A stretch of DNA of 63,907 bases, counting the filler, from Octopus bimaculoides (Eukaryota): assembly GCF_001194135.2 (NCBI RefSeq). It is 12 parts of 8 records of this genome, joined end to end, with 100 filler letters (N's around TTAATTAATTAA, not from the genome) between each part and the next. Parts side by side here need not be neighbours in the genome. Positions count along the whole stretch, not along the records: positions 10,717 to 20,746 come from NC_068989.1; positions 20,847 to 22,484 come from NC_068984.1; positions 22,585 to 24,953 come from NW_026437690.1; positions 25,054 to 26,815 come from NC_068981.1; positions 26,916 to 32,524 come from NC_068981.1; positions 32,625 to 48,276 come from NC_068983.1; 6 more parts are not named here. The stretch is one strand, 5' to 3'. The position numbers and the translations under genes were made by a program. Positions 19,231 to 45,514 of the stretch are shown one piece after another. Under the pieces are notes generated by a model. The model was not told where the DNA came from. It was given only the letters and a program-made list of their open reading frames with translations, and ran no database searches. The first letter of the stretch is position 1; each line of letters starts with the position of its first letter.

Positions 19231-19982
19231 GGATCTTTTTTAAAACGGGGCCACAGTATTTTCTTAACAAAACACTTTGAAACTTGGAACACTGGTAGAA
19301 TGTGTCATATAAAACATCTTTTTCTCTTAGTCTTCTTAAAAAAAAAAAGAAATCCCTAAGTTATTCCATGTTAAAGTTGTCGTATTTCTGTAATTTCAAC
19401 CAATCACTGACGTCCATTCAGCCGATATACATTAAGTGCCGACTACATAAACAAACGATTCTGAAACAATTCTACCGGTGATAAAATTATTACTTCCTTG
19501 TCAAAAAATGGCTGAAGCATATTGGCAGTAGCTAATAAACCTTTCTATTATAGGCTAACCCCAACCCTAACCCTAACCCTAACCCTAACCCTANNNNNNN
19601 NNNNNNNNNNNNNNNNNNNNNNNNNNNNNNNNNNNNNNNNNNNNNNNNNNNNNNNNNAAAGAAAAAAGCAAATAAAACGAAGAAAAAAAAATGAAAAAAG
19701 CAAATTGCCTCTCTGCAAATGTCAGAAGTTATGGAGATTAAATACGCTTTACACCGCTTAATCAGCCAAAGGAGTAAATGTAAACAACTGAATACTTGTC
19801 AGTGATTGGTTGAAATTATCGAAATAAGACAATTTTTTACATGAAATAAATTCGCATACAAAAATATTTTTCTGTTCTATAACACAAAATAGATAAGTAT
19901 ACGAAGTTTGAAAGTCTTTCGGTACCAAAAACACTACGTAAAACATTAATGAAAAATGTGGCCCCCGTTTTAAAATAGATCC
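19231..19982. mobile_element. non-autonomous DNA transposon (GGATC termini, 8-bp TSD) with internal (CCCTAA)n
   Basis: TIR GGATCTTTTTTAAAACGGGGCCACA / TGTGGCCCCCGTTTTAAAATAGATCC; imperfect inner arms; flanks GAAAGAAC / GAAAAAAC. Confidence 0.88.
19555..19593 (+). repeat. interstitial telomeric repeat (CCCTAA)n
   Basis: At least 6 units running into an N gap. Confidence 0.95.
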
Positions 19983-20241
19983 GAAAAAACTCTCTAAAAA
20001 CTCTCGAAAGAACTGTTTATTTGCTTCATAAATGTTATTGGCCTCTGAATTAAAGTTCTTGCATTTTGTTTATACTCAACGGGTTTATTTGTTATTTTCA
20101 ACTCCTCTGACTTCTTTGACTTCTGCTTCTTCCGGTCTGAGCAAGTTGGTTTGCTGAGCTCGCCTACGTGGTCTTCTGAGCTATTGGACACAACCTGTTG
20201 TGTTATAGGTGGTTTCCGGAGGTTGCGTGTGGCGCAACAAC

Positions 20242-20259
20242 TGGTGTCGGAATTGGGAT
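20242..20259 (+). promoter_or_regulatory. primer-binding site, tRNA-Leu type
   Basis: TGGTGTCGGAATTGGGAT matches TGGTGTCAGAAGTGGGAT (complement of the tRNA-Leu 3' end) at 16/18 positions, 2 nt after the LTR CA end. Confidence 0.8.
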
Positions 20260-20290
20260 ATTCATTGCTACTGTGATCCGATTATTCACT

Positions 20291-20425
20291 ATGGACCCGG
20301 CGGAAGGAGTACGTACAATGAGTCAGACAAAAACGGCTACAGTTGTGAAAATTCTAAAGGAGCTCAATGATAATTGAAATGAGCTCAAAGAGGAGCAGAA
20401 AACGTGGCACGCATCTTCAAGTTGT
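20291..20425 (+). pseudogene. Gypsy gag N-terminal relic (MDPAEGVRT...)
   Basis: ATG shortly after the PBS; MDPAE-type start; in-frame stop after 28 codons; truncated by a SINE-A tail fragment at ~20440-20510. Confidence 0.5.
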
Positions 20426-20514
20426 GAAAAAAAAAAAAAATACTGGGGTCAATTCGACTGAAACAAATTGCTCAAGGCGATGCTCCAGCATGGCAGCAGT
20501 CGAATAACTGAAAC

Positions 20515-20640
20515 AGTGTTACCCATTTCAGGACTAGAACAAGATGAAATGGCATGTTTTGCTCAAGAACACAACAACCGTTCCGTCTGCGGATCGAACG
20601 CATGATCTTGCGATTCTGAGTGCAATACCCTAACCATTAG
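20515..20640 (-). mobile_element. tRNA-derived SINE head (family C-like), diverged
   Basis: Reverse complement: TAATGGTTAGGGTATT...GTTCGATCC...TTCTTGAGCAAAAC. Confidence 0.6.
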
Positions 20641-20846
20641 GGAACTGGAATATTGGAATATATAACCATGGTGATTACAATATGCAACACTTCTACCGAT
20701 ATCGGATGCTTGAAGACTGGAAGTGGGGAGTCTTTTTCATGCTTCANNNNNNNNNNNNNNNNNNNNNNNNNNNNNNNNNNNNNNNNNNNNTTAATTAATT
20801 AANNNNNNNNNNNNNNNNNNNNNNNNNNNNNNNNNNNNNNNNNNNN

Positions 20847-21218
20847 GCTTTCTAATTGATGTATCAATACCAGCAGGTGGCAACGTTTCTCTAAAAGAAA
20901 TGGAAAAACTTTCAAAATACAAAGACCTGGAAATAGAGATAACTCGAATGTGGAAGCTAAAAACAGAAACAATTCCTATTATAGTAGGTGCCTTAGGTAT
21001 AATAAAAAAATATTGAAACAAATACTTAACAAAAACACCAGGACTTACAAATATATATAACATACAGAAAATTGCACTACTGGGTACTGCACACATTCTA
21101 CGCAAAGCACTTTCAATACAGTAAACATAAGAGCACCACAGCAAACGACAGCACATACCCAAGGCGCACAGAGCTGCGCTCGGTAGTGATGTGAAAGCAC
21201 GTTATAAAAATAAAACTA

Positions 21219-21221
<3 letters not shown>
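20847..21221 (+). mobile_element. R4/Dong-type non-LTR retrotransposon 3' end (RLE domain + 3' UTR)
   Basis: LIDVSIP...EKLSKYKDLEIEITRMWKLKTETIPIIVGALG; ends in (AAT)n at 21222-21249. Confidence 0.9.
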
Positions 21222-21246
<25 letters not shown>

Positions 21247-21249
<3 letters not shown>

Positions 21250-21765
21250 TAGAATGATGAGTTCTTTACTTTTGTATACGATTGCCAAATTCCATCACTA
21301 AGGTAAACATAGTTGACGTAATCCATCACTACGGCCAACTCAATAACAGAAAGCGCAACTCGAAAGTAACTTATTTATTGGTCCTTTGAACAACGACAAT
21401 ATTTCGACATTTCGTGTGTCTTCAACTGGTCTGGTTCAAAATAAAATAAATGTCAATCTAATTCATTTTTAGTTTATAGAGAGGACTGCTAAACTCAGCA
21501 GAAATGTAATATATAGAAAAATGAGTTCTTAACTTTTGTATACGATTGCCAAATTCCATCACTAAGGTAAACATGGCTGACGTAATCCATCACTACGGCC
21601 AACTCAATAACAGAAAGCGCGACTCGAAAGTAACTTATTCATTGGTCCTTTGAACAACGACAATATTTCGACATCTTGTGTGTCTTCAACTGGTCTGGTT
21701 CAAAATAAAATAAATGTCAGTCTAATTCATTTTTAGTTTATAGAGAGGACTGTTAAACTCAGCAG
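21247..21765. repeat. tandem dimer, 264-bp period, ~93% identical
   Basis: 21247-21501 is repeated at 21511-21765. Each unit has a decayed hammerhead-like motif on the minus strand. Confidence 0.95.
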
Positions 21766-21869
21766 TTTGTTGTAGTATAGATTCATCACAGCAGATTCAC
21801 AGCAGACTCACACTTTACTCTTTATTGGGCTAACTTGAAACAGCTGTAAGGGACTATTCTTTTATTCTT

Positions 21870-21933
21870 TTAATCTTTTACTTGTTTCAGTCATTTGACT
21901 GAGGCCATGCTGGAGCACCGCCTTTAGTCGAAT
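21870..21933 (-). mobile_element. SINE family A 3' tail fragment
   Basis: TTGTTTCAGTCATTTGACTGAGGCCATGCTGGAGCACCGCCTTTAGTCG. Confidence 0.85.
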
Positions 21934-22120
21934 CATTTGAAGGATTATAATCATGGTTTATATACAAACATTATTTTACAAATATTATTATTCGTAATAA
22001 ATATTAGGTATTGAACCAGTAATTTATTGGATGATACTATCCCTTAACGAGAATAGTTTAACCTCTAATTGTATTTGTGTGTGTATAAACACACACACAC
22101 ACACACACGCATAAACGTAT

Positions 22121-22435
22121 ATATGCTTAGTGGTCAGGGCCTTCGTCTCATGATTGTAAGGTCTTGGGTTCAATTCCCAGCGACGGGTTGTGTCCTTGAG
22201 CAAGACACTTTATTTCACGTTGCTCCAGTCCACTCAGTTGGCAAACATGAGTAGTACCTGTATTTCAAAGGGCGAAGGTTGTCACACTCTGTGCCAATGC
22301 TGAGTCTCCCTGAGAACTACATTAAGGGTACACGTGTCTGTGGAATGCTCAGTCACTTGCACGTTAGTTTCACGAGCAAGCCGTTCCGTTGATTGTATCA
22401 GCTGGGACCATCATCGTCGTAACCCACGGAGTGCT
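22121..22435 (+). mobile_element. SINE family C (head variant 2, CCTTGAGCAAGACAC central domain)
   Basis: A-box TGCTTAGTGG, B-box GGTTCAATTCC; body shared with 6948-7050. Confidence 0.85.
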
Positions 22436-22452
22436 CCCTCTATCCCTCTCTC

Positions 22453-22484
<32 letters not shown>

Positions 22485-22603
22485 NNNNNNNNNNNNNNNN
22501 NNNNNNNNNNNNNNNNNNNNNNNNNNNNTTAATTAATTAANNNNNNNNNNNNNNNNNNNNNNNNNNNNNNNNNNNNNNNNNNNNGTGCGTGCGTGCGTGT
22601 GTG

Positions 22604-22702
22604 ATTATTCAGTTTATTTCAAGATTTCTTGCCAATAGATAAAGAACAGGTTTTTAACCTAGATCCAAGGTTCCTTCATTGGAATTTCAACATCAACAGC
22701 AA
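22604..22702 (-). mobile_element. family D copy
   Basis: Homologous to 12957-13049; abuts (TATG)n at 22703-22770. Confidence 0.7.
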
Positions 22703-22770
22703 TGTATGTATGTATGTATGCATGTATGTATGTATGTATGTATGTATGTATGTATGCATGCATGCATGTA

Positions 22771-23787
22771 TGATTTATATATGTATTCTTATGCATATAG
22801 TTACATATCTAGACATGCTCATACATATTTAAATGCTAAACTTCTGGAAAGTTTTATAGATTTTTACAGTTCCATTGATGGATTGGATCTCTAGCCTTCA
22901 AATTAGCTTTCTCCTTTCTGGTTTTGAGAACCCTAATTTCTCAAGTTTGGTATTTAGGCAGTGTGTTACATATCCCAGGTCCCCAATAATTACAGGTATA
23001 AACCTGAACTTGTAATCTCGATAGAGTAACTGCAGATTTCTCAATAGTTCAGCATAGATGTTCTCTTTTTCACTGATCTTCAGCTTTATGTTGACATCCG
23101 CTGGGCAGCTAATTTCCACAACTGTGCACAGTTTCTCTTCTCTATCTCAAATCATATCAGGTCTGTTGTGCTTACATTTTATTGAGGTCTTCACCGGTAC
23201 TTTCCGCCAGTATTCCTTTTCATTATGAATGGCTATGGCTTTTACTCATATTGTGGGTTCTTATTTCTTTGTCCTCGGGATTATCCTAACCAGAAAGACA
23301 TATTTCATCGGTAGATAATACCGTGATGACATTTTCAGACAACTGCATCAGTTGTCACATTTTACGAATTTTTCCCGCATCTCTATCTCTTTTGTGCATC
23401 AGGTACTTGGTTGATGATTCCTGTTCCTGGATTGCAAACGGATAACCTTCAAAGTGGGAGGTAGTAATCCGGATATTTGTCCGTGATAAACTGCTTTGAT
23501 GATCAATGTTACTATCATCACGGAGCTTTCTTCTAACATATCCATACATAGTCTTCTGCTCATATAGGCTCATCCTTTCATCTGATTATATGTTGCGGTA
23601 GAGTCGTGCGACTTCTTTGGGCATGTATTATAGTTTATCAGACAAAGAGTGTTGCTCAAGGAGCTGCCTTCCAAGTCTTATGATGTTATCAGTTTCATGT
23701 ATGGAAACTTGGTCAAGAGATGCACTTCGACGCTTGTTGGTTAAAAGATGTTGCTGAAGGGATACGATGCGACATTCAGAAGCATTT
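22771..23787 (-). mobile_element. RLE-type (R4/NeSL-like) LINE C-terminal fragment flanked by (ACAT)n
   Basis: Frameshifted ...HFEGYPFAIQEQE..., MEISCPAD..K..EKENIY...FIPVIIGDLG and GTVKIYKTF. (CATA)n lies on the sense strand at both ends (22703-22770, 23788-23830). Confidence 0.8.
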
Positions 23788-24171
23788 TGTATGTATGTAT
23801 GTATGTATGTATGTATGTATGCATGTATGTTTACCTGTATGTATATATGTGTGCATTTCCCAGTAACAAACCCGACCTTGGAACCATGCAACTCCATGCA
23901 AATGTATAAAACAAACGCTAGAAGTATGAAAAGTGGTGATAACAACTGCTGGATATTTACAGTCGTATAATCACAACCGACCAACTTATTGCGGAATTAT
24001 TGTTTTCCTGAAAAGTATGTTCTGGAATTTCGGACGGAAGACATATTTTTGTGATTGAGTTCCATGTCGTAACCTCTGTGGAATTCTGACGGAAGTCTTT
24101 CATAAAGATAAAAACATGTTTTATAACTTTTGTACCGAAAAATAAAATATCTTTTCAACTTCCACAAATGT

Positions 24172-24234
<63 letters not shown>

Positions 24235-25053
24235 CGCGTGCATATATATATAATATTTTAAGAGAAATGCATCAGGAAATAAATAAGAATTCACTAACAT
24301 CGTAGAAGAGTAAGTTTTGACCACAAAAGTGGTATATATGTAACGACTGAAGATTTGTTTGATGAAGGTTGAGACTCTTCATTATGTAAGGATGAAAGAA
24401 CAGTGATTGAAGTTGTGAAGAAAATATTTATTTTTACCGTTACATTATACAATACCTTGCCTCGACGGGCAGGTGATAAAATCATAGAGCATGCGAAGTA
24501 AAAGAGTTAATTTCAGCCTGTCTGTTCTTATTGTAGTAGTAAACCATAGAGAGAGATATGGTAATGTGCAAAGAAGAGAAAGTGAGTTTGTGAAAATGAG
24601 AGAGTGTGAGAAGTTGGGTCTCGTATAGTCGCTGATTCTAAACTTCTTTCTTTTTCTCTCTGGCCGTTTGTCTGCCTGCTTGTGGCCATGATTCTAGTGG
24701 TCGGTTCACTAACTGATATCAGCTCTCTCTCAACTCACGAGTTTTCACCAAGTGACTAACTTATTTTTGCTTGGGAGTTCTTGTTATAACTATCCAGAAG
24801 GATAGACATATCGATGAGAACAATGGATTTAGTTGGTGGTACTTGTTATCTTAATTCTAGCTTTTGGTGGTCTATAAGAGGTTAGAAGGGTCAAGTGGCG
24901 AAGACATTATTTCAGCCTAGCTAAAGGCATCTGGCAAATGTAAACTGTCAAAGNNNNNNNNNNNNNNNNNNNNNNNNNNNNNNNNNNNNNNNNNNNNTTA
25001 ATTAATTAANNNNNNNNNNNNNNNNNNNNNNNNNNNNNNNNNNNNNNNNNNNN

Positions 25054-25103
<50 letters not shown>

Positions 25104-25199
25104 ATGTGTGTGTGTGTGTGCATGCGTGTGTGTGTTTGTGTGTGCATGTGTGTGTGTGTGTGTGAGGTGATGGGTAGATTATTGCTGTAAAGGACATGC

Positions 25200-25620
25200 C
25201 TTTATATATGGATGGTCATGATTTTACTTAGCTTGATATGTCTTCTCAAGGACTGCAAATAACCAGAAGTCTCAGTCCTTTGTCATCTCCTCAGTGAGGT
25301 TCAATATCTGAAGATCCTTTCTCCTCCCTTCATCCTATGTCTTCCTGGGTCTACCCCTTCCACAGGTTCCTCCACAATTAGATATCAGCACTTCTTTATT
25401 GCAGCTGTCCTCATCCATACACATCACATGGCCACACCAGCATAGTCTCTTGCACACAACATCTGATGCTTCTTATACCCAACCTTTCTCTTAAATCATT
25501 TACACTCTGTCATACATGCACATTGATATTACCCATCCAGCAGAACATGCTGACTCTATTCTTTTTAAGCCTTCTCAAGTCCTCTGCAGTCACAGTCCAT
25601 GTTTTGCTATCATGTAGCAT
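25200..25620 (-). mobile_element. RTE-clade LINE 3' fragment
   Basis: Frameshifted LREKLGIRSIRCC.QE..L.WCGHV..MDEDSC.KKC..LIVEGTCGRGRPRKT.D. Confidence 0.8.
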
Positions 25621-25654
25621 AGCTGTTCATATATATATATATATATATATCATC

Positions 25655-25950
25655 AATCAACATCACCATCATCATCATCACTATCATCAACATTTAACAT
25701 CCATTTTCCATGCTGGTATGGGTTGGATGGCTTAACAGGAACTGGCAAGGCCAAGGGCCACACCAGATTCCATAGTCTGTTTTGGTTTGTTTTCTATAGC
25801 TGGATGCCCTTCCTAATGCCAACCACTTCACAGTATACTGATGCTTTTTACATAGCACCATCAGCAGTGCTTTTTATGTGGCACCAGCACTAATGCTTTT
25901 TACATGGCACCAGAACTTACACCAATACTTTTTATGTGGCACCTTGATTT
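25655..25950 (-). mobile_element. SINE with RTE-like modules (family R), diverged, with internal minisatellite
   Basis: GCTGGATGCCCTTCCTAATGCCAACC motif, (GAT)n tail, and four ~23-bp TGCTTTTTA(C/T)(A/G)TGGCACC units. Confidence 0.75.
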
Positions 25951-26084
25951 TAGGATATCAATTTTTGTTGTGGTGTGTAGGTCTTCTTGAGTACAGAAAT
26001 GCACCACATTCTTTGGTTCTTTGTCATCTCTTTCATAAGACTCAGCATGTGTGTCTATGTGTGTGTGTGTGTGTATACATATAT

Positions 26085-26235
26085 ATACTCTTTTATTCTC
26101 TTTTACTCTTTTACTTGTTTCAGCACCGCCTTTAGCCAAACAAATCAACCCCAGGACTTATTCTTTGTAAGCCTAGTACTTATTTTATCGGTCTCTTTTG
26201 CCAAACCACTAAGTTACGGGGACCTAAACACACTT
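26085..26235 (-). mobile_element. SINE family A 3' part
   Basis: CACCGCCTTTAG...CCCCAGGACTTATTCTTTGTAAGCCTAGTAC...AAGTTACGGGGAC. Confidence 0.85.
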
Positions 26236-26627
26236 TTTCTCTAAAGATGGAACAGATTTCCATGAAAATGATGGTTGTAGACTCCTTGCAGGAAATTGCA
26301 CCAATTGCACATCTATTCTTGAAACAGCTGTAAGGGGCACATCTTCCTTCTTATCCAGCTTTGGATTCTGGACTTTACTTGTGATGACCTGCCTTAACCT
26401 ACTATCTAATATCAATAATATAGACTTTCCTTATAACTGTTCCAAGAGAACGCCGGCATACATCACAAACATTATGAACATACCTGAACTGATTTTTTTT
26501 TTTATTGATATCTTGTGATTTATACTCCCAAAACATTTCAAATCCCTTTCTATCTTCAAGCTATATCAATACATAAATATCCTAATCTGACCAGACACCA
26601 GTTGTTTACCTGTCTATATTTTAATGA

Positions 26628-26815
26628 CATCATCATCGTTTAACGTCCGCTTTCCATGCTAGCATGGGTTGGACGATTTGACTGAGGACTGGTGAAACCG
26701 GATGGCAACACCAGGCTCCAGTCTGATTTGGCAGAGTTTCTACAGCTGGATGCCCTTCCTAACGCCAACCACTCAGAGAGTGTAGTGGGTGCTTTTACGT
26801 GTCACCCGCACGAAA
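26628..26815 (-). mobile_element. SINE family R, young copy
   Basis: Near-identical to 62915-63069; ends ...GCGGACGTTAAACGATGATGATG on the sense strand. Confidence 0.85.
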
Positions 26816-26915
26816 NNNNNNNNNNNNNNNNNNNNNNNNNNNNNNNNNNNNNNNNNNNNTTAATTAATTAANNNNNNNNNNNNNNNNNNNNNNNNNNNNN
26901 NNNNNNNNNNNNNNN

Positions 26916-26948
<33 letters not shown>

Positions 26949-26956
<8 letters not shown>

Positions 26957-27214
26957 GAGTAGAGGCAATTAGAGTGGAAAACTAGAGGTTCATGACCTAT
27001 TATCCGGCAAAATATACAATATATATGCACACTTACTTCGACATTAATAAAACGGCATATATGTCTATACGCTTGTATCTTATTAATACTTCTGTTATGT
27101 TGAGCTTTATGCCGCCTTATTAATGTTGAAGTGTGCATATATATTGTATATTCTTCTCTATAATAGGTCATGTCCCTCTAGTTTTCCGCTCGTATTGCCT
27201 CCACTCAAATTATA
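26949..27214. repeat. ~265-bp imperfect fold-back palindrome
   Basis: TATAATTTGAGTAGAGGCAAT...GCACACTT... (26949-27062) mirrors 27103-27214, with a ~40-bp spacer; left end abuts (AT)n. Confidence 0.85.
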
Positions 27215-29249
27215 AATTGGAACTCTACTCAACTTGAGCACTTCGAGTCTAGCCTGTCTACGAGTATTGTTAATTAATAACAATATCTATAAAATAATAT
27301 AATTTCTCTCTCTATATATATATTTATGCATGGACAACATACTAAGAAGGAAAAGCAAAGAAACAAAGAGAAAGAGATGTTTCAGATAAAAAAGAGAGAA
27401 AAAGTAAGAAATTGAATGTGATAAAAACATAGTCAAATGGTTATTAGGGAATGAAATTAACTTAGTTCATCACGAAAACTCTTGTTTTATACTACCACAC
27501 TTATGTCTTAATGTAAGAATTGTACTGTTTCTGGAACTCCTTCGCAAAATGTGTTTCTCTGCACATATCAACGACTAACTTCAAGGAAGCAAACTCTTAG
27601 CTATCCAATGACAATTCCTCAACCTGAACAATTAACCTGCTAAGATAGCAACCAAATCTTGTACAAATCACACCATGTAACCTTAAAAAAGAAACAAAAC
27701 ACTGTGTAACGCAGTGATAGATAGACTGTAATTAAAAAGAAGACAAGAAATCTCTGGACTGAAATTTCTTTGAATATAAATCCGTTCCATTATTGTTGAT
27801 ATGAAGTTAAATAATGCCAAGAATGGTACCTTCATTCCGTTATCTTATTTTATAATGCTAGTTAATAAGAAAACGAACGAAATGACACTTTACAAAGGAG
27901 ATACAAATGGTATATAGCATAAAAGTCGCCAGGAGTTTTCGCTAACGAGTCTGTTCTTATGAAAATGTTAAGTGTTCTAACAATTATTAGTAAAGTCTAA
28001 AACCAAACGATTTAAATATAGAAAATAAACGTGGTGCCAACAGCAAGAACATTTATTGTTTCTTAATCCGAGATTAGCACTGATTGATGAGATTTATAAT
28101 CGAGGATATTCCAGTCGTGATCATCACATTCGTTAGGCTATGTACATTCAAGGTCACAGTATTTAACATGTGCTTCTTCTTTTAAGATGGTAGACCTTGA
28201 TATGCTGAATACTTGACTTCCATATTTAGCAGGTTGTGCGATCTCGTAGAGGCTCCCTTAGTATCTTGAGTAAGAGAAATAGGAACATTTTGGTTTGGAT
28301 TATCAGCAGTGAAGGGTTCTGCCAGGTGAAGAAAGTTCAAAACAAGTGTAAGCGGCCATTTCAATTCGAAAAGTAACCAGACATTACCAAATGGAAAGAA
28401 ATAACAAAAGAACAAAAGAAAATCGACCAACTGAAATACAGCAAGAATGTCCCAAATTTCAGGTTGAAATATTTTTGAAACACGCAGAAAGTACTTGAAA
28501 AATATTTAATGACTGAGAAAGTGCTATAAACAACAACTGATTGGATTATCTAGTGTAATCTTGGATTATCTAGTGTAAAGACAACTAAAGAGCCACAAAC
28601 CCATCATAACCTACTTGAGTGTACAGATAAAAAAGAAATCAGTTTTTCGCTCCACATGGTAATAGATTTTACTGAGCTCTTCTACAGCCAGTGTTCAAAC
28701 ATTTAATTGTAGTAATGGTTCAAAATTGTGATTACTTAAAAAGGAAGTCTCACTTCCAGAAGACAATGGATGCTTCAAAATTACAAATGACTGTAAATAA
28801 CAGTCATTACCGAAGAATATAACAGAAAGAAGAATCTGATTTACTAACAGATGACATTTTACCATGTTTCCTGTATATGGTCACAAAAGTGTAGATATGA
28901 GTATAAAGTAGCATAAATAGTAATAAGGTACAGAATCCTGTCAAATAAATGACGGCCAAGTCTCCCAGTATGAAAAAACCCAAAATAAAACAAAATTAAA
29001 TCAAAATGGACTCGGGTTCAAATATCGTGGTTGTATATAAAGCCTTCTTTTGTATATAAACCGATGATTTGAAGTAGTACTTTGTAGATGATAAACAAAC
29101 TGGTAACAATGTTACAGATACACACAAGGCTGCGAATATGATGAGTCATGTATAGGACATTTTAAAGATGGAAATTATGAATGAAGAAAGAATATATGAG
29201 TATACAAGGGAAATTATTAAAGAATTATACAGGAATAGAAAACAATACA

Positions 29250-32024: not shown

Positions 32025-32157
32025 AACATTATCGCGTAGGGAGTAACTCCAGTACATCGACCCTAGTGCTCAACTGGCAATTACTTTATTGATTTCGAAG
32101 ATTGAAAGGCTAAATCGACTTCAGCAGAAATTGAACTCAGATCGTGAAGACGGAAGA
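32025..32157 (-). mobile_element. SINE family B fragment
   Basis: ACATCGACCCTAGTGCTCAACTGG...TTGAACTCAGA. Confidence 0.7.
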
Positions 32158-32178
32158 AATAATAATAATAATAATAAT

Positions 32179-32524
32179 ATGCAAAAACCTGGACTTGCCC
32201 CATGATAAAAACTGGTGGGAACACAAACCACCCCCAGTACTTGGAAATGATCACATTGCACTCCTCTGGAACTTCACCATTCAAACTGACAGAAAGATAG
32301 ACGCAAATAGGCCAGACATCATACTGAAAGACTTCAGACAAAAATCATGCCTCCTCATTGATATGACTGTCCCAATCGATATAAACGTATCTGTCAAGAC
32401 CTACCAAAAACTGAGCAAATATAAAGATCTTGAAATAGAAATTAGCAAAATGTGGAATCTGAAGACGAAAACAATACCTATTGTCATAGGTGCCCTGGGA
32501 ATGACAGCGAAACGGGCTGATTAC
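32179..32524 (+). mobile_element. R4/Dong-type RLE endonuclease fragment
   Basis: WWEHKP..V..LLWNFTIQTDRKIDANRPDIILKD...LLIDMTVP.D....KLSKYKDL (PD-D/ExK RLE); preceded by (AAT)n at 32158-32178. Confidence 0.92.
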
Positions 32525-32624
32525 NNNNNNNNNNNNNNNNNNNNNNNNNNNNNNNNNNNNNNNNNNNNTTAATTAATTAANNNNNNNNNNNNNNNNNNNN
32601 NNNNNNNNNNNNNNNNNNNNNNNN

Positions 32625-32809: not shown

Positions 32810-33630
32810 ATTTGGAAAAGAGGCAACCATCGATTACATCAACATAAGAGAAGAGGATGTAATATTAGCTATTGATGAGATGAGATCAAACTCAGCAAGG
32901 GGCCTAGATGGACTCCCGCTTGTTCTCTTAAAGACATTTAAAAAGGCTCTTGCAAAGCCGCTGCAGATACTCTTTCAGGGGGATACTTGCATGTGGTAAA
33001 CGTCTCAATATGCTAAAAGCGGATGTAATATGCCCTGTCCATAAAGGAGGGACCGGAGAAGATGCTAAAACTATACGCCCATCTCTCTGACCTCACATGT
33101 TATCAAGATAATGGAGCGCATTGTCAGAAAAATGCTGATCACGTTCCTAGAAGAAAACAACCTTCTCACACAAACGCAACATGGCTTCCATCCAAGGAGG
33201 AGCTGCCTCACACAATTGCTGCAGCACTTTGACTTGGTGCTGAAGTAACAGCTAAACCAGTCAGCTGTAGACGTGATATACCTCGGCTTTGCCAAGGCTT
33301 TCGGCAAGGTTGATCATGGCATGATATGTCATAAGCTGCGGAATTTTGGTATTACCAGGAAACTGGGAGAGTGGCTGCATTATTTTCTGAAGGGCAGGAG
33401 TCAAACAGTTGTAGCCAATGGTGCTCACTCTGAAGAGACACCAGTTCTCAGCGGGGTCTTACAGGGAACTATACTGGGGACATTCTATTTGTGGTGGCCC
33501 TATCTGACATGCCTTCCGCGGTACAGTCAGCCAATTTGACTAGTTATGCTGACGACACAAAATTATTGCAGACAATGAGTAACTCAGAGGGCATCATAAA
33601 ACTGCAGAAAGACCTGAACGAAATCTACAT
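32810..33630 (+). mobile_element. CR1-like LINE reverse-transcriptase pseudogene
   Basis: Frameshifted RPISLTSHVIKIMERIV, QHGF..RSCLTQL, DVIYLGFAKAFGKVDH, GVLQGTILG, YADDTK. Confidence 0.9.
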
Positions 33631-36155: not shown

Positions 36156-36168
36156 TAATAATAATAAT

Positions 36169-36250
<82 letters not shown>

Positions 36251-36805: not shown

Positions 36806-36915
36806 AATAACAATAATAATAATAATGAATCTAATAGCATATGGGAACCGGTATTGAGGAAGGATAGAAAAATAATAGATTTATAAGCCTTAAAATTCAC
36901 CCCATAATTGCCCAT

Positions 36916-37554: not shown

Positions 37555-38859
37555 AGACCAGCCTAGGGCTGATGAAAATGGAGTAATGATTGAAAGAGTT
37601 AATGTAACTAATAAGCAAAATGAAATACTCTCTGAACAACCATAAACACTAAGGCAGATAAAAATCAAATAGATGAAGAAAGTCACACACTCTCCCAAAA
37701 ATTCGCAATTCTAACCAAAACCTGAAAATAATTGGTAAAATCCGCCTTGCACTTAAGGATATAATTTCAGCTAATGATGTTGATATTACAGATCTCAACC
37801 ACCTGTACTGTGTTTCCGCGAAAATCTCAACGATTCTATGTGGTGAAAAGATTAGAAAACGACAACATTCCCGCAAAAAGCCTTCTTGGCAAGAGCGCAT
37901 TCAACACCAAATTAAGCTACTTAGGTATGGCATAGAATATCTGAAAAACCTTAAGTCTAACAAGACTATCAAACTACAAAAATTATCAAACCTACCGAAA
38001 ATTAAAGAAAAACTATATGAAAACCATATTTGACATTGATATCACCATAGAAACCATCAAGTAAAGGGTATGTGCTAAAGCTGCCCGCACAGCAAGGTAT
38101 GAAAAGCGCGTTAGATTCTTCAAGGACAACATATTGAAAAAAAAACCAAAAAATTTTTACAGGAAGATAGGGACGATACCAATTATAGTAAAGTCTGTCT
38201 CATCAAAAGAAGAAGTGCAGGAATTTTGGTATAAAATTTAGGCAGAAGAAAAAACACACAATGGATTGATAGAATATCTACAGACTTAGACTCCTTAGAG
38301 GAGCAAAAGTGGGAGGGTGTCAAGGTAGAAGATATAAGATCTGCTCTCAGGAGGTCAAGCAAATGGAAATCTCCAGGAAATGATAAAATTCCTAACTTCT
38401 GGTTGAATGCCTTCCCAGAGAGCCATGAACTGCTAACAAAACTTTACAACGATGTTTTGCAACATCCTAGTATGATTCCCTCTTGGCTATTTAAGGACTT
38501 AACATTCCTACTTCCGAAAAGTGAAGAAACAAATGAACCAAAAAAATTATCGACCCATAACCTGCTTAACAACAATGTATAAAACGCTAGCATCTGTCCT
38601 GACTGAATATACCTATAGTTTTTTAATAGAAAGTGGCATATTCCCAAATGAGCAAAAAGGATGTAAACGTGGATCTTATGGTTGTAAAGATCAGCTACTC
38701 ATCAATAAGATGATCTTAGAAGATTGTCACAAACGACACAAAAACTTGTCAATAGCCTGGATAGACTATAAAAAAGCTTTTGATAGCCTACCACATAACT
38801 GGATTAAGAAATATCTGGAAATGTATAAAATAGCTCCTACTCTACAATATTCTTTATGA
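37555..38859 (+). mobile_element. R4/Dong-type family Y: N-terminal region + RT domains (pseudogene)
   Basis: [67 protein letters not shown]; with stops and frameshifts. Confidence 0.93.
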
Positions 38860-40850
38860 AAGACAAAAGCAAGGGTAATATAGCAAGCAATTATAGACCA
38901 ATTACTTGCTTGCCATTAGTGTGGAAGTTGTTAACAGGAATGCACATAGAAAGCATTTACAAGCACCTTGACAGCCAGAATTTGCTGCCAGAAGAACAGA
39001 AAGGTTGCAGGAAGAAGACTAGAGGAACGCATGTTCTATTATACATAGACAAAGCAGTTCTAAATTAAGTAAATTTTAGAAAGAAAAATTTAACAATCGC
39101 ATGGATATATTATAGGAAAGCCTATGACATGATTCCATACTCATGGATAAGTGAATGTCTGAGTATATTCAGTATTTCAGACAACATAAGAGAATTAATT
39201 AGCTTTAGCATGAAGAAATGGACTCGGTGACATAGCCTTATGGAAAGTTAATATCAAGAGAGGAATTTTCCAAGGAGACTCATATTACCGTTTAACATTT
39301 GTCTAACGTTTAATCCTCCTCAGTTTAGTGTTAAGGGCGGCAAAAGCAGAGTGTCAATTCAGAAATAAAAAGGAAAAATTAACCATTTCCTCTACATGGA
39401 TGATCTGAAGCTTTTTAGTAAGAATGAAAAAGAGTTAGATTCCTCAATACAGACTGTAAGAGTCTTCAGCAAAGATATAGGCATGGAATTTGGCATAGAT
39501 AAGTGTGCCATATTAGTCATGAAAAAGTAATAGGTAGTCAACAGTGAAGGTATCCAATTACCAGATGGCCAGACATAAAAATCACTGTAAGAAAGAGAGA
39601 GCTATAAGTATCTCGGAGTACTAGAATCTGACAGAACGAAACTTCAGTACATCAGAAGGATTAGGAAGCTAATAAAGTCAAAGCTAAATGGTCCGAATCT
39701 AGTGAAGGCTGTAGATACTGAGGTAGTGGCAGATTTTTTAGATTGGACCAAATCTGAATTAGCAAATCTAGACAGAAGAGCTAGGAAGGAATTCAATATG
39801 AATGGAGTACTTCACTCAAGATCAGGAGTAGCAAGATTATACTTACCTAGAAATGAAGGTGGAAGAGGGTTATTATCAGTAGAAGACTATATGGAGTTAA
39901 CTAGAGTAGATACAGCCTCCTATGTAGGTAATAGTGAAGAATGTTTATTAAGAGCTGCTAGAATCACAGTAGACGCCAAAAACTCAAATGAAGTTAAAAA
40001 CCAGAAAAAAGAAGAAAGATTATCTCATTGGCAAGAGAAGGCTTTGCATGGTAGACTCCCAAGGATAATTTCAGAAAATAGTAATTGCGAGACATGGTTA
40101 TGGTTGCAGAAAGAGGGGCTGAAAATGGAGGCAGAAAGTTTGTTAGTAGCAGCACAAGATCAAGCATTGAGGACCAATTGGATAAAATCCAAGATAGTAA
40201 AAAAAAATGGGAGATTCCCAATGTAGTTTATATAAATCAAAAGAGGTAAGTGTTTCTCATTAGTGAGTGAATGCAGCATGCTGGCACAAAAAGAATACCA
40301 AAAAAAAAAAAGACATGACAACCCAGGGAGAATAATCCACTGGGTTATGTAGAAAAGCTAGGATTTGACCATAATGATAAATGGTATGAACATGAACCTA
40401 GTAAAGTACTAGAAAGTAAGAAATATAAGATGTTGTGGGATTTTAACATTCAGACTGACATAGTATTAGAAGTTAGAAGGCCTGATTTAGTAGTAGTAGA
40501 CAAAGAGAATAAAAAGTGCCAGATGATTGACTTTGCAGTTCCAAATGATGAAAAAGTCAATATGAGAGGTATAGAGAAAATAGCAAAGTACCAGTACCTA
40601 GCCATTAAGTTATAGAGACTATGGAAAGTGCGGGTAAAATGTATCCTAGTAGATGTATTAGGAACTATCCCTAAAGATTTGAACAGATAGATAGAAGAAA
40701 TAGGCATAAAACCTAGCTTAGTACAGCTCCAGAAAACTGTTATTAGGGACAGCTAGAATACTTAGGAGAGTTCTTGGCATCTAAGGTTACTTGTAGCCTG
40801 ATATTAGGATTTTTTCTTTCCCAGTAGTCCAATCTGTTGTGCGTATATGA
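38856..40850 (+). mobile_element. R4/Dong family X: RT to 3' end (pseudogene)
   Basis: [83 protein letters not shown]. Confidence 0.93.
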
Positions 40851-40984
40851 AATAATAAGTACCATCCTATATTCTGCAATAAACCCGAGAAAGATTCTTG
40901 AGATTTGAGGAGACTTGTTATCACTAAACCTTAAGATAACATTCCTGCTGATTAAAATAGCATCAAACAACAACAACAACAAGG

Positions 40985-41292
40985 GAAGAACTATGATGAA
41001 TTGAAGTGAGAAGTACCCAGGTTGTGGGCAATGAAGAGAGTAGACACGACACCAATTGTAATTGGTGCGCCTGAAATTATCAGAACCCAACTACCAACAT
41101 GGCTCGAAAAGACTAGAACAAATATAAAGATGGAACATCTACAAAATTTTCATTACTTGAAATTGCAAGAGTTCTCCGCGTGGTTCTTGAAGCCTGAACA
41201 GTAAACAATTGTAACCTTAGTCTGCTGGCTATGGGCAACTGATACTTTCCATCATACCCAGAAAAATACGCCGAGAGTTTTCAGGAAATATT
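40985..41292 (+). mobile_element. R4/Dong-type 3' end
   Basis: YDELK.EV.RLWAMKRVDTTPIVIGA; followed by (AAT)n at 41293-41372. Confidence 0.75.
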
Positions 41293-41299
41293 GATAATG

Positions 41300-41373
<74 letters not shown>

Positions 41374-41379
41374 TCTTCA

Positions 41380-42735
41380 ATGAGAGCGATTGAGAAAGGG
41401 CAGTGATATAAGTACTTGGGAATACTGGAAGTAGACGAAATTTAAAAAATCATGAAATGAAACGACCAGTAGGGAGTACACTTGGAGAGTAAGAAAATTG
41501 TTGCAGTCAAAGCTGAATTCACAAAATCTTATTGAAACAAGAAATTCAAGGGCAGTACCCTTAATCAGATATGGAGTAAAAACGATATAAAGAAACTTGA
41601 CAGAAAAACTAGAAAGTTGTTGACAATGTATGGAGCCCACCATCTGAAAGCTAATATCAACCGGCTGTAATGAGGAGAGACCAAGGTGGAAGAGGCTTAA
41701 TAGCAGTAGAAGAATGTGTACAGAGGGAAAGAAAAGACCTAGTAGAGTTTACAGAGTAGCACAGGAAAACTACTAAAGACAGTGTATAAAGAACAGGTGA
41801 TCAAGTGCATAATACAAGAAAAGGACAAGAATGAAACAAAACGAAAGCAAGCCAGACAAATTGAAGAGAAACCTCTGCATGGCCAATTTTGGAGAGCCAC
41901 AGAAGACGTATGTGGAACAAAATCTTGGGCTTGGTTAAAAAAAGGGGGGGGGGGGCAATTAAAAAAAAAAACAGAGAATCTAATTGTAGCAGCCCGAGTT
42001 CAAGCGATAAAAACAAACAACTTGAGAAAAATATATATGGAGATAATGTGTCAGAAAAATGTAGAGCTGTGGAACTTAGAACGAAACAGTAGCACACATT
42101 GTGGCAGAATGCCCCAAGTGGGCACAGGAAGACTATAAGAAATGGAGGCACGACCAGATTATAAAAGTTTTACACTGAAAACTGTGCCAGAAATGAAGAT
42201 TTGAAGCTGGAAACACACGGTATAATCACTGAGTCGAAAGAAATGTAAGAGTCGAAGAAATGCTGGAGTCGGAGAAATGTAAGATTTTGGGGGACTTTCC
42301 TATTCAAACGGACAAGAAGTTAGAAAACAGACCGGACATAACAATTATAGATAGAAAAGCGAAGCTGCTTACTTATTGACCCATTATGCCCGTTTGATTC
42401 CAGGATCATAAAGAAAGAGGACGAAAAATACAGTCCCTTAAAATTTGAAATAGGAAGAATTTGAAGCATGAGAGCAGTTAAGGTCGTGCCTATAATTGGT
42501 GCGCTGGGAGCAGTAAGCAATGATATAGCGAAATGGCTGAAAATTCGAATAGAATGCCCGGTAGAGCTCCTACAGAAAGTTTGTCTCTTAGGGACAACAA
42601 AGATTATCAGGAGAGTTCAAAGCGTTTGAAAGACAGCTGAAAACCCGTGGATACCTAAGTTTACAGGTAATAACCCGCTACCCATATAAATCCTACCAGG
42701 AATAAGACCGAACCTGAGCCAAACCAAAATAAAAA
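41380..42735 (+). mobile_element. R4/Dong-type 3' half (pseudogene)
   Basis: YKYLGILE, LDRKTRKLLTMYGAHH, EKPLHGQFWR, SWAWLKKG.LKK.TE.LI.AA, RPDI..., VVPIIGALGAVS, LLQKVCLLGTTKIIRRV. Confidence 0.88.
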
Positions 42736-43859
42736 TAATAACGTCGTAACATGTTGGAGATGTGAAAAGTCTTAGATTGTTCAGATACTGGTGTCTCTTA
42801 AAAGAAAAGGAATAATGATTCATTGATAACTACCGGACCTCTACTTTACAAAGGGAAGATGATACCATCGATTTTACTCCGACCATAACATACTAGAAAT
42901 AACAAAGAATAGTACAAAGAAAATCGAAAGTGTATACCGTACATGAAGCAATCAAACCCTATCCAATCTGAACTTCTACGAAGTTGACAGTAAATCTGTT
43001 CAAAGAGAGATTCTGAAACAAAACTGATCTAAAAATCTCTTTGTGCAAGACAATAACATGAAAGTTAAAGAAATTGTTAATATAAGCTATCTGTATTAAA
43101 CTTGTTCCATAGAGAAAACTAATACATGTAAAAACATTATTCCTAGGGACAGGAAGGTCCTCATGAGACAAAATATAAACATTTCAAATCGCTTAAATAA
43201 ACAACTTAATGGTAGCCAGGAGTCCCATTTATGAAAAAGCTCCCTTTTTAACATAGCCTCTTCCATGAAAAAACGAGGGGAGAGAGAGAAACTAAGATAG
43301 CTTGAAATATAAAAACAAAACCTAAGATCTTCTGCGAATGTACAAAAGAATCTACCTTGATGTGTCACAAGATGGTGTCACAATTCGAAGAAAATTGTAC
43401 TGCAGAACTTAACAAAATAAAAGAAATACTAAATAAACAATTCTAAAGTGTTTTCATTTCCCATTGTGAGATCTGCAGATAAATAACCCTAATGAGTTCT
43501 TCAAAATCACAGANNNNNNNNNNNNNNNNNNNNNNNNNNNNNNNNNNNNNNNNNNNNNNNNNNNNNNNNNNNNNNNNNNNNNNNNNNNNNNNNNNNNNNN
43601 NNNNNNNNNNNNNNNNNNNNNNNNNNNNNNNNNNNNNNNNNNNNNNNNNNNNNNNNNNNNNNNNNNNNNNNNNNNNNNNNNNNNNNNNNNNNNNNNNNNN
43701 NNNNNNNNNNNNNNNNNNNNNNNNNNNNNNNNNNNNNNNNNNNNNCAGAATTTCAAATCAGAACATGACAGACGAAATGTCACTAAGCATTTTTCCCGGT
43801 TTGCCAACGATTCTGCCAGCTCGACACCTTTAGGAGATTGTAATATTGGCATTAAATGT

Positions 43860-44058
43860 TGACACAAGGCCAGCAGCTTCGGGGAAGGGGTTGATTACAT
43901 CAACCTTAGTGCTCAACTGGTTCTTATTTTGTCGACCCCCGAAAGGATGAAGGGCAAAGTTGACCTCAGCAGAATTTGAACTCAGAACATAAGGACGGAC
44001 GAAATGCTGCTAAGCATTTTGCCCGGCGTGCTAGCGATTCTGCTAGCTCGCCGCCTTA
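43860..44058 (-). mobile_element. SINE family B full-length (plus a 5' fragment at 43746-43830)
   Basis: Collinear with family B; head ...GCTAGCTCGCCGCCTT at 44043-44058. Confidence 0.88.
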
Positions 44059-44837
44059 GAAGAGGTTGTAATATTGGCCATTGATGTAATGAGTTTGAAC
44101 TCAGCAATAAGCTTTGATGTTTTTCCAATTATTCCCTTAAAGAAATGCAAGAAGACTGACAAAATCACTGCAGATACTTTTCCAAAGTATTCTTCGATGT
44201 GGTAAACTTCTGGAAAAGTTAAAAGAAGGTTCAATATGCCTTATCTATAAAGGAGGAAGCAGAGCAGATATTAAAACTTACAGGCCTATCTCTTCGACCT
44301 CACACATCAGCAAAATAATGGAATGCATTATCAGAAGGAAAATAATTACGTTGGTAGATGAAAATGGTCTGCTTATTGACACACTATACAGCTTCCATCC
44401 AGGAAGGTATTGCCTCACACAGCTACTTGACGCTGAAGCAAGAGATCAATCATTTAAAATAAGATATGATGTATCTTAATTTTGCATAGGCCTCCGATAA
44501 AGTTGATTATAAAATGCCAGAAACTTCGTGACCTTAGTAAAGTTAGAAAACTTGGAAAGTGATTGCATAACTTTTTAAAAGGTATAAAGGTAAGAGTCAG
44601 GCAGTCGCAGCAAACAGTGCTCTCTTCAAGAAGACATCAATTCTAAGTAGAGTCCCTCTGGGAACTCTACTGAGATCATTATTGTTTGTGATGACTCTCG
44701 CAGAGATGGCCTCAGTCATGCAGTTAGCAGTTAGCCACTCTCACCAGCTATGTTGATATTACAAAAGTGACACAGACTGACTAGAAGTTTTATCATAACG
44801 CAAATCAACTGCAAAACATGAATGCAATATAAAAGTG

Positions 44838-45514
44838 GGATCTTTGGGGTTTGACGGGCAACATTTGTTTTCTTAACGAAACACTTTCAAACTTGGGACA
44901 CTGGTAGAATGTGTCATATAAAACAACTTCTTCTCTTAACCTTCTTAACAAAATTTTGTACATCGCAAGTTATTTCATGTTAAAGTTGTATTTCTGTAAT
45001 TTCAACCAATCACTGACGTCTATTCAGCTGAATACAATTACTGCTGTTTGGTGTCAAGTGTGTTATTCCCTGTTTAATTATATCATTATTCCCTAGTAAG
45101 GGTTTAGGGTTAGGGTTTTAGGGTTAGGGTTTTAGGGTTAGGGTTGGGGTTAGGGTTGGGGTTAGGGTTAGGGTTANNNNNNNNNNNNNNNNNNNNGCTA
45201 AAACCAGTACAAACGCACGAACGATGTCATAAATAAGAGTAACACGGGTAGTTGTTGACAAACAACGGGACTAATTTTATTCAAGGGAAAAGATCCCATG
45301 ACACCGTTACGGCATTAATTGTTTTCACCTCAATAGACGTCAGTGATTGGTTGAAATTACCGAAATACGACAGTTTTTTTTACATAAAATAACTTCGAAT
45401 ACAAAAGTTTTTATCTGTTCTATACCACAAAATATACAAATATTTGAAGTTTGAAAGTGTTTCGGTACCAAAAACACTACAAAAAAAATGTTGCCCGTCA
45501 AACCCCAAAGATCC
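44838..45514. mobile_element. non-autonomous DNA transposon (perfect 29-bp TIR, 8-bp TSD) with internal (TTAGGG)n
   Basis: GGATCTTTGGGGTTTGACGGGCAACATTT (44838-44866) / AAATGTTGCCCGTCAAACCCCAAAGATCC (45486-45514); TSD TAAAAGTG at 44830-44837 and 45515-45522. Confidence 0.95.
45099..45176 (+). repeat. interstitial telomeric repeat (TTAGGG)n with variants
   Basis: About 12 units including TTTTAGGG and TTGGGG variants, running into an N gap. Confidence 0.95.

What the first reader, a model, noticed from the sequence alone, without database searches (positions are those of the whole stretch)
19231..45514. Non-autonomous DNA transposon family carrying internal telomeric arrays (copies at 19231-19982 and 44838-45514)
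Seen: both elements start GGATC and end GATCC, have 8-bp TSDs (GAAAGAAC/GAAAAAAC; TAAAAGTG exact) and share ~250-bp imperfect inverted arms (e.g. GTAATTTCAACCAATCACTGACGTC and its mirror). Both have a telomeric array in the middle. The outer TIRs differ between copies yet match within each copy, suggesting two subfamilies. Relative to the shared left arm the array is (CCCTAA)n in one copy and (TTAGGG)n in the other; both run into gaps. Established: TTAGGG is the usual molluscan telomere repeat; 8-bp TSDs with GG termini fit Merlin, while 8-bp TSDs alone also fit hAT and P. Inferred: a mobile vector that spreads interstitial telomeric sequence, possibly with a head-to-head CCCTAA/TTAGGG centre, and thus G-quadruplex or shelterin-binding sites and fragility.
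Basis: partly seen in the sequence, partly recalled or inferred. Interest (0 to 1): 0.78.

Follow-up and report, generated by a model that had tools for sequence, protein, structure and literature searches.

The report
Octopus transposon family spreading telomeric hairpins
These two stretches are copies of a short jumping-DNA family, estimated at several thousand copies in what is likely an octopus genome, and a large share of copies carry telomere-type repeats in their middle, so transposition has likely scattered chromosome-end sequence through the chromosome interiors.

Summary
Both elements have GGATC..GATCC ends, 8-bp target duplications and shared 85-87% arms, and neither encodes a transposase. 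Raw reads from the same organism show hundreds to about 1,900 different flanks per run starting exactly at the ends, and an estimated 3,600-8,800 copies. The arrays are not gap artefacts. In the commonest form the left arm runs straight into (CCCTAA)n (497-1,032 reads per run), the right arm also meets CCCTAA when read inward, and contigs show a CCCTA-GCGT-TAGGG hairpin between the two arrays. The window's two copies show opposite halves of this design. Roughly 30-40% of copies are shown to carry arrays; 13-25% of e1-like junction reads lack them; the rest are unresolved. The strand order is the reverse of a chromosome-fusion scar. Merlin is the likeliest mobiliser (GG ends, 8 bp, TIR likeness to a hemichordate Merlin, Merlin abundant in Octopus), but no partner transposase could be linked, and Mutator is not excluded. 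The same hairpin centre sits in an unrelated repeat family in metagenome contigs. Verdict: a new variant of a known kind, and a concrete case of transposon-spread interstitial telomeric sequence. Protein binding and fragility are untested.

The parts
19223..19230 (+). left target-site duplication of e1 (GAAAGAAC)
   Evidence: some reads and 2 contigs carry A at 19227, matching the right copy
19231..19255 (+). e1 left TIR tip (25 bp)
   Evidence: 24 of 25 match to right tip; loose ends before 19231 with random flanks, 754 and 745 reads
19256..19471 (+). e1 left arm with conserved CCAAT/CRE-like core at 19391-19411 and inner segment; the commonest family form enters (CCCTAA)n right after 19471
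19472..19554 (+). extra inner segment of the longer e1-type subfamily
   Evidence: depth 430-672; weakly like e2's right inner segment, p=0.005
19555..19593 (+). (CCCTAA)n array, 6 C-tracts, G4 pattern on the minus strand
19594..19657 (.). assembly gap (64 N); this copy's centre is unresolved
   Evidence: no laid piece bridges it
19658..19722 (+). A-rich inner segment of a minority of copies
   Evidence: depth 212-641 against 1323-1688 in the next bin
19723..19982 (-). e1 right arm and TIR; its inner end (about 19729-19758) is a decayed form of the junction that in other copies runs into the array
   Evidence: 24 of 28 columns by eye; 839/1653/1890 loose ends behind 19982
19983..19990 (+). right target-site duplication of e1 (GAAAAAAC)
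   Evidence: 3 listed contigs match the flank from 19982-19985 onward without the element
44830..44837 (+). left target-site duplication of e2 (TAAAAGTG), inside a decayed LINE reverse-transcriptase region
44838..45090 (+). e2 left TIR tip (26 bp), arm and short inner segment
45091..45102 (+). likely relic of the hairpin centre (CCCT-AGTA-AGGG); the left array is collapsed to one partial unit
   Evidence: sequence; homology to the read-derived centre is inferred
45099..45176 (+). degenerate (TTAGGG)n array, 12 G-tracts, the only plus-strand G4 pattern in the window
   Evidence: 160 and 163 reads run past 45119
45177..45196 (.). assembly gap (20 N)
45197..45514 (-). e2 right inner segment, arm and TIR
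   Evidence: 219-bp inverted match to the left end at 70%
45515..45522 (+). right target-site duplication of e2 (TAAAAGTG)

Best explanation
The two elements are copies of a high-copy, non-coding, quasi-palindromic DNA transposon family, likely moved in trans by a Merlin transposase, whose commonest form carries telomeric repeats between its arms as a likely inherited passenger. Shown: ends, 8-bp duplications, many different insertion sites, no coding capacity in the sequenced parts, and arrays directly behind the arms in many copies. Layout of the main form, pieced together from short reads and so inferred as a whole: TIR, arm of about 240 bp, (CCCTAA)n, a 4-nt loop, (TTAGGG)m, arm of about 250 bp, TIR. 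Inferred origin: a founder carried a few telomeric hexamers in its subterminal DNA, and a fold-back or template switch inside them made the inverted centre. Slippage then changed array length, and hairpin processing flipped the loop and deleted one half (e2) or the whole array (array-less copies). Cut-and-paste transposition, with gap repair restoring donor sites, amplified the result to thousands of interstitial telomeric sites. On this reading the arrays need no function.
For: Ends and mobility: loose ends before 19231 and behind 19982 with agreement 0.35-0.36, i.e. unrelated flanks. e2 interrupts a LINE whose relative P0002 aligns to residue 175 on the left and from residue 178 on the right (E 0.36 and 0.006). 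Copy number 3,557-8,764 for genome sizes of 2.3-3.2 Gb. Arrays: 497/1,032/790 loose ends behind 19471 with (AACCCT)n consensus, agreement 0.75-0.77, enough to account for the whole depth drop there. 160 of about 223 and 163 of about 244 reads on e2's inner segment run past 45119 in the array. 952/986 loose ends behind 45047 end in CCCCTAACC and match e1's right inner segment (24 of 28 columns by eye). Centre: 10 X2 contigs give CCCTAA units, then CCCTAGCG, then TTAGGG; the X23 consensus ends in the reverse form. Fold-back z = -9.5 and -19.8 against 25 shuffles. Merlin: GG ends, 8-9 bp TSD and 24-462 bp TIR define it (PMC8101967). O. bimaculoides has the most Merlin hits listed among bilaterians (191), and Merlin is nearly restricted to cephalopods among molluscs (PMC10294476). 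e1's right TIR matches a Ptychodera Merlin end at 13 of 19 positions (11 of 17 without GG, p about 0.001), and that family holds (TTAGGG)2 about 330 bp inside one end.
Against: No read or contig spans a whole element, and neither gap is bridged. The centre rests on the longest few of 10 contigs (median loose length 13) and the last 4 letters of one consensus; X21 and X22 read pure repeat for 30 letters. Array-less joints exist: 72, 222 and 257 reads, 13-25% of e1-like junction reads. A large class (617 reads behind 45046; 1,006-1,516 behind 19422) is not seen far enough to score. No empty-site joint was among the 15 of 82 joints shown. No transposase is linked. In the Ptychodera Merlin the repeat reads TTAGGG inward, opposite to the main octopus form. 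The TIR comparison is one family, counted by eye. Library type is 'other' and depths differ about twofold between runs. The organism rests on one named hit at 75% identity.
Confidence: 0.7

Rival explanations
1. Same family and same arrays, but mobilised by a Mutator-like (MULE/foldback) transposase rather than Merlin.
For: MULEs have TIRs over 100 bp and 8-10 bp TSDs, animal MULEs make 8 or 9 bp, and their non-autonomous copies have heterogeneous interiors (PMC5225508). MULEs occur in all molluscs surveyed. Arms here are 240-260 bp.
Against: Both TSDs are 8 bp (2 of 2). TIR likeness to a Merlin end. Merlin is unusually abundant in Octopus.
Confidence: 0.2
2. The telomeric centre is a selected cis-element: telomere-repeat-binding host proteins, or the hairpin itself, help pair the ends, escape silencing or favour repair of the donor site, so array-bearing copies out-amplify array-less ones.
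For: The commonest form keeps the arrays. The same 20-bp centre sits in 5 copies of an unrelated repeat family and in 1 other locus (6 of 6 matches examined). Short TTAGGG runs are kept in a transposase-bearing Merlin. TRF1 and TRF2 bind a subset of human interstitial repeats (PMC7215372). Both arrays fit a G4 pattern.
Against: Array-less and half-array copies have also multiplied. Founder effects alone can give a dominant form. A fold-back inside any telomeric run yields nearly this centre, and no control pattern was scanned. There are no binding data.
Confidence: 0.15
3. The arrays were first put there by telomerase healing of a break (for example an excision site) or captured from a chromosome-fusion scar, and were then amplified.
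For: Short interstitial telomeric sequences in mammals arise at repaired double-strand breaks, sometimes with inverted duplications that give two opposed stretches (PMC7215372). TTAGGG is the telomere motif found by FISH in one octopod.
Against: Two telomerase-extended ends joined together give TTAGGG then CCCTAA (recalled); the reads show the reverse order with a 4-nt loop. This argues against simple healing or fusion but not against one telomerase-made run that later folded back.
Confidence: 0.12
4. The arrays are mis-joins at gap edges, or microsatellites that arose independently in these two copies.
For: Both arrays abut N runs, and the window is full of gaps at simple repeats.
Against: Hundreds to about a thousand raw reads per run join arm to array at one fixed position, in 3 samples, and contigs of another run agree.
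Confidence: 0.02

Closest known systems
Merlin non-autonomous elements (IS1016/IS1595-related), as described in PMC8101967
   Same: GG ends, 8-bp TSD, TIR within 24-462 bp, imperfect extendable TIRs, internal tandem repeats noted for many families; abundant in Octopus.
   Different: The paper does not mention telomeric repeats (0 hits for 'telomer' in the main text). Here the repeat is a two-sided telomeric hairpin at the centre of a family of thousands. No transposase is linked.
Ptychodera flava Merlin family (S2 Appendix of PMC8101967)
   Same: TIR start alike at 13 of 19 positions; a TGACGTC motif in the subterminal DNA; TTAGGG units a few hundred bp inside an end.
   Different: Transposase-bearing; only about 2 units; reads TTAGGG inward; no hairpin centre seen in the first 400 letters shown per segment.
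Aedes Muta1-type MULE/foldback elements (PMC5225508)
   Same: Long TIRs, 8-9 bp TSD, hundreds of non-autonomous derivatives with varied interiors.
   Different: Muta1 has 12-bp subterminal tandem repeats inside the TIR and mixed 8/9-bp TSDs; none of the former were found here.
Oxytricha telomere-bearing elements, TBE (PMC4724952)
   Same: A DNA transposon that carries the host telomeric repeat, C-rich strand reading inward from each end.
   Different: TBE repeats are at the very tips of the TIR, the TSD is ANT (3 bp), the elements are autonomous Tc1/mariner and serve in ciliate genome rearrangement.
Interstitial telomeric sequences of vertebrates (PMC7215372, PMC9693754)
   Same: Short internal TTAGGG runs of variable length; a transposon origin is listed as a proposal.
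   Different: Those are single insertions at breaks or fusion scars; here one junction is copied to thousands of sites inside a TIR element.

Membership tests
non-autonomous TIR transposon (MITE-like) | short, TIRs, TSD, no transposase ORF | tested here: met
   677 and 752 bp; longest ORF in e1 79 aa (through the array and gap), ORFs in e2 at most 61 aa; gap sizes are the assembler's estimates
non-autonomous TIR transposon (MITE-like) | high copy number at dispersed sites with exact ends | tested here: met
Merlin | 5'-GG termini | tested here: met
   all TIR variants seen in reads begin GGATC
Merlin | 8- or 9-bp TSD | tested here: met
   8 bp in 2 of 2 copies
Merlin | TIR 24-462 bp, often imperfect | tested here: met
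   25-26 bp tips; 219-bp inverted match in e2
Merlin | TIR sequence like that of a transposase-bearing Merlin | tested here: inconclusive
   13 of 19 with one hemichordate family, by eye; e2's tip is less alike; no octopus Merlin TIR was available
Merlin | partner with DDE_Tnp_IS1595 transposase sharing the TIR | not testable with these tools
   no genome held; no relatives in metagenome or viral contigs
Mutator/MULE | TIR over 100 bp and 8-10 bp TSD | tested here: met
Mutator/MULE | partner with MULE transposase | not testable with these tools
hAT and P | termini beginning CA or TA (recalled, from no call) | tested here: not met
   ends are GGATC; only the 8-bp TSD is shared
TBE (telomere-bearing elements) | telomeric repeat at the TIR tip and 3-bp ANT TSD | tested here: not met
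   repeats are central, TSD is 8 bp
fusion-type interstitial telomeric sequence | TTAGGG array followed by CCCTAA array (order recalled) | tested here: not met
   reads show CCCTAA then TTAGGG
functional telomere-protein site or fragile site | TRF/POT1 binding, G4 formation in vivo, breakage | not testable with these tools
   only the G4 sequence pattern was checked

The most novel reading that the evidence does not exclude
A divergent telomeric hairpin, (CCCTAA)n-loop-(TTAGGG)m, is a cis-acting module that unrelated animal DNA transposons (this Merlin-like octopus family, a Helitron-like family in another animal) have each adopted because telomere-binding proteins or the hairpin aid their spread. 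In octopus it has seeded thousands of shelterin-binding, G4-capable internal sites that shape chromosome breakage and the reshuffled cephalopod karyotype.
Probability: 0.12. Interest if true: 0.85.

Novelty: new variant of a known kind. Interest (0 to 1): 0.55.

Why it matters
Reviews list transposon insertion as a proposed but little-documented origin of interstitial telomeric sequence (PMC9693754). This family gives a countable case: thousands of near-identical sites with natural controls (array-bearing, half-array and array-less copies), so binding by telomere proteins, silencing, breakage and amplification rate can be compared within one family. It also bears on practice, because cephalopod assemblies use TTAGGG to mark chromosome ends (PMC13218726) and these internal arrays can cause false telomere calls and assembly gaps, as at both copies here.

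Tried and rejected
No whole genome is held, so no genome-wide census or partner search was possible. The conserved arm 21-mer gave 0 matches in metagenome contigs and 0 in viral contigs. Rfam gave 0 matches. Three look-ups of earlier findings returned nothing. An empty site inside the window was sought: the LINE paralog at 32849-33600 does not reach e2's insertion point, and no second LTR copy is present. My first idea, that the whole centre is inverted between e1 and e2, has weak support (p=0.005 and 0.001), but a symmetric two-array ancestor with loss of one half explains the reads better. I first read the loose ends behind 45047 as a third subfamily and dropped this once they matched e1's right inner segment. 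Proximity-ligation chimeras at GATC were considered for the loose ends and rejected by inference: a GATC cut would put them at 19232 and 19981, not 19231 and 19982. Summed contig depths were not used for copy number, as the tool warns. A nested piggyBac reading of the centre (TTAA-CCCT..AGGG, recalled motif) was considered; the right junction was not seen, so it is untested.
Full report
Check of the observation. The duplications do not extend to 9 bp, and these are the only 2 GGATC..GATCC pairs within 5 kb in the window whose 8-bp flanks differ at 2 or fewer places. The outer 25-26 bp match within each copy (24 of 25, 26 of 26) and less between copies. The next 130 bp or so group by side: left with left 87%, right with right 85%, left with right 70-79%. 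A 21-mer occurs in all 4 arms and nowhere else, with none in 100 shuffles. The arrays are the only tandem telomeric hexamers in the window, and both run into N runs. Neither element has an ORF that could be a transposase.

Surroundings. e2 interrupts a decayed LINE reverse transcriptase. A relative (P0002) aligns up to residue 175 at the left boundary and resumes at residue 178 just after the right duplication, so the LINE is colinear across the insertion, though the two boundary alignments are weak (E 0.36 and 0.006). e1 lies in what looks like the LTR of a decayed retrotransposon (TG at about 18646, CA at about 20238, a primer-site-like TGG motif; labels recalled, not tested). Three listed contigs of run X2 match the right flank from 19982-19985 onward without the element, and some reads show A at 19227, making the left duplication equal to the right one. 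Both fit an original target GAAAAAAC. No empty-site joint was among the 15 of 82 joints shown. The only named protein hit for a LINE fragment of the window is an Octopus entry at 75% identity (1 of 4 hits), so the organism is likely but not proven to be an octopus.

Family size and mobility. No genome is held, so I laid public reads of the same organism on the two loci (24 runs listed; 5 used). In 1,934 Mb per run, flank depth was 0-36 while the conserved core reached 5,984 and 7,641. Loose ends pile up exactly before 19231 (754 and 745 reads) and behind 19982 (839, 1,653, 1,890 reads) with agreement 0.35-0.36, which means unrelated flanks. For genome sizes of 2.3-3.2 Gb this gives 3,557-8,764 elements. 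The library type is 'other' and depths vary about twofold between runs, so several thousand is the safe reading.

Are the arrays a family trait? Yes, for a large share. On e1, depth drops by about 980-1,840 after 19471, and 497, 1,032 and 790 loose ends there have an (AACCCT)n consensus with agreement 0.75-0.77. At the element's end, loose-end counts are 0.41-0.42 of depth, so this class accounts for the whole drop. On e2, 160 of about 223 and 163 of about 244 reads over the inner segment run on past 45119 inside the array. A class of 952 and 986 loose ends behind 45047 (agreement 0.56-0.58) ends in CCCCTAACC; by eye it matches e1's right inner segment read inward at 24 of 28 columns, and depth on e1's right side falls from 1,323-1,688 to 233-411 just inside that point. 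So the main form meets CCCTAA reading inward from either end. Against this: joints that skip the array total 72, 222 and 257 reads, 13-25% of e1-like junction reads, and a class of 617 reads behind 45046 (1,006-1,516 behind 19422) is not seen far enough to score. Rough hand arithmetic from these numbers gives 30-40% of elements shown to carry arrays; a majority is possible but not shown. Limits: only 24 of 900 and 24 of 2,407 loose-end rows were displayed, the tool skipped e1's array so depth inside it is unknown, and human-like reads are dropped silently, which would bias against array-bearing reads.

The centre. Ten X2 contigs give a loose-end consensus of CCCTAA units, then CCCTAGCG, then TTAGGG (agreement 0.95, median length only 13). 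The X23 consensus ends in the reverse-complement form, while X21 and X22 read pure repeat for 30 letters. This is a CCCTA/TAGGG stem with a 4-nt loop, present in both orientations. e2's array starts at CCCT-AGTA-AGGG, a likely relic. The opposite array directions in e1 and e2 are then two halves of one symmetric design. Both elements fold end to end far better than shuffles (z -9.5 and -19.8). Neither window gap was bridged, so these two copies' own centres stay open. The order CCCTAA-then-TTAGGG is the reverse of an end-to-end fusion junction (order recalled; the 2q13 case is named in PMC7215372).

Mechanism. Shown: dispersal of one arm-array junction to many sites with 8-bp duplications. Inferred: a founder with a few subterminal hexamers underwent a fold-back inside them; slippage varied array length; hairpin processing flipped the loop or deleted part or all of the arrays; a transposase in trans amplified the result. 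I give this 0.7 including the Merlin assignment. A selective role for the arrays (0.15), a telomerase or fusion origin (0.12), a MULE mobiliser (0.2) and artefact (0.02) are the rivals; they concern different steps and do not sum to one.

Superfamily. Merlin is defined by GG ends, 8-9 bp TSDs and 24-462 bp TIRs, and many families hold tandem repeats (PMC8101967). O. bimaculoides has the highest count listed among bilaterians, 191 hits, and Merlin is almost restricted to cephalopods in a mollusc survey (PMC10294476). In that paper's S2 archive the string TTAGGGTTAGG occurs 40 times; the 30 places I saw lie in the Ptychodera flava Merlin contig file, about 330 bp inside a TIR by my overlap of truncated lines. 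That TIR matches e1's right TIR at 13 of 19 positions (p about 0.001 without the GG). There the repeat reads TTAGGG inward, unlike the main octopus form. MULEs also fit the TIR and TSD sizes (PMC5225508). The defining transposase could not be tested, so membership is probable, not shown.

Recurrence elsewhere. The 20-bp centre motif matched 6 metagenome loci. Five belong to one repeat family unrelated to the octopus arms, with a short 3' hairpin and GACA repeats (Helitron-like, label recalled); its loop reads GCGT in 4 copies and ACGC in 1 in the same family orientation. The sixth locus is a separate context. No control pattern was scanned, so this shows that such hairpins recur, not that they are selected. 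I also recall telomere-like runs inside fish non-autonomous DNA transposons; that comes from no call.

Novelty and reading. Ten paper searches listed no description of this family or of a TIR element with a central telomeric hairpin. Repbase, Dfam and subscription journals could not be searched, and the family may already sit in an octopus repeat library. A review lists transposon insertion as a proposed origin of interstitial telomeric sequence (PMC9693754). TBE elements carry repeats at their tips with a 3-bp TSD (PMC4724952). TTAGGG is experimentally known for one cephalopod only (PMC6160780, PMC13218726). What I saw: passages of all eight papers; for PMC8101967 also part 1 of 2 of S1 Table (periods only, no units), four supplement searches and part 24 of 55 of the S2 archive with lines cut at about 400 letters. 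Its Fig. 2 TIR sequences were not visible. Feschotte 2004, Adachi 2014 and Bolzan 2017 were not read.

Verdict. A real, large, non-autonomous transposon family with a telomeric hairpin core in a large share of copies: a new variant of a known kind. It is a good test system for transposon-spread interstitial telomeric sequence; functional claims remain untested. Interest 0.55.

Noticed in passing
window 18646-20238 and 20242-20746: LTR-like segment around e1 (TG..CA ends, primer-site-like motif, decayed gag-like start at 20292); right part has read depth 4-28, so it is a small multi-copy family. Labels recalled.
   Followed up: partly
window 44058-45830 and 32849-33600: Two decayed LINE reverse-transcriptase fragments, 67% alike; homologues carry PF00078.
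   Followed up: partly
window 19391-19415, 19798-19818, 44997-45021, 45335-45359: The best-conserved part of all arms joins a CCAAT box to a CRE-like TGACGTC (motif names recalled); it is the read-depth peak and may be a promoter remnant or a transposase-binding site.
   Followed up: partly
window 648-816, 26946-27217, 63218-63802: Three other fold-back or TIR elements unrelated to this family (89%, 77% and 76% inverted matches).
   Followed up: no
window 21242-21765: Tandem duplication of a 264-bp unit at 95%.
   Followed up: no
window 10617, 20747, 22485, 24954, 26816, 32525, 48277, 55248, 57068, 59866, 62647: Eleven gaps have the pattern 44 N, 12 bases, 44 N; the 12 bases at 20791-20802 are TTAATTAATTAA. 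Likely an assembly linker artefact.
   Followed up: no
window 32135-32572, 39591-40226, 41746-42138, 20847-21249: Further LINE-like coding fragments, and many copies of short interspersed repeats across the window.
   Followed up: no
L001, L002, L004, L005, L006: A Helitron-like repeat family of about 1 kb rich in GTGACCTTGA motifs carries the same telomeric hairpin centre, with the loop flipped in L005.
   Followed up: partly
L003 54-89: An isolated 26-bp telomeric palindrome with the same loop, in an unrelated context.
   Followed up: no
PMC8101967 S1 Table: Merlin-1_Aplcal of the mollusc Aplysia has a 6-bp-period repeat of 39.5 copies and Merlin-N1_DR a 12-bp-period repeat; units are not given and could be telomeric.
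   Followed up: no
window 19458/19684 and 19264-19270/19944-19950: Opposite-strand joints in about 75-165 reads per run suggest copies whose two ends or inner segments are swapped or mirrored.
   Followed up: no
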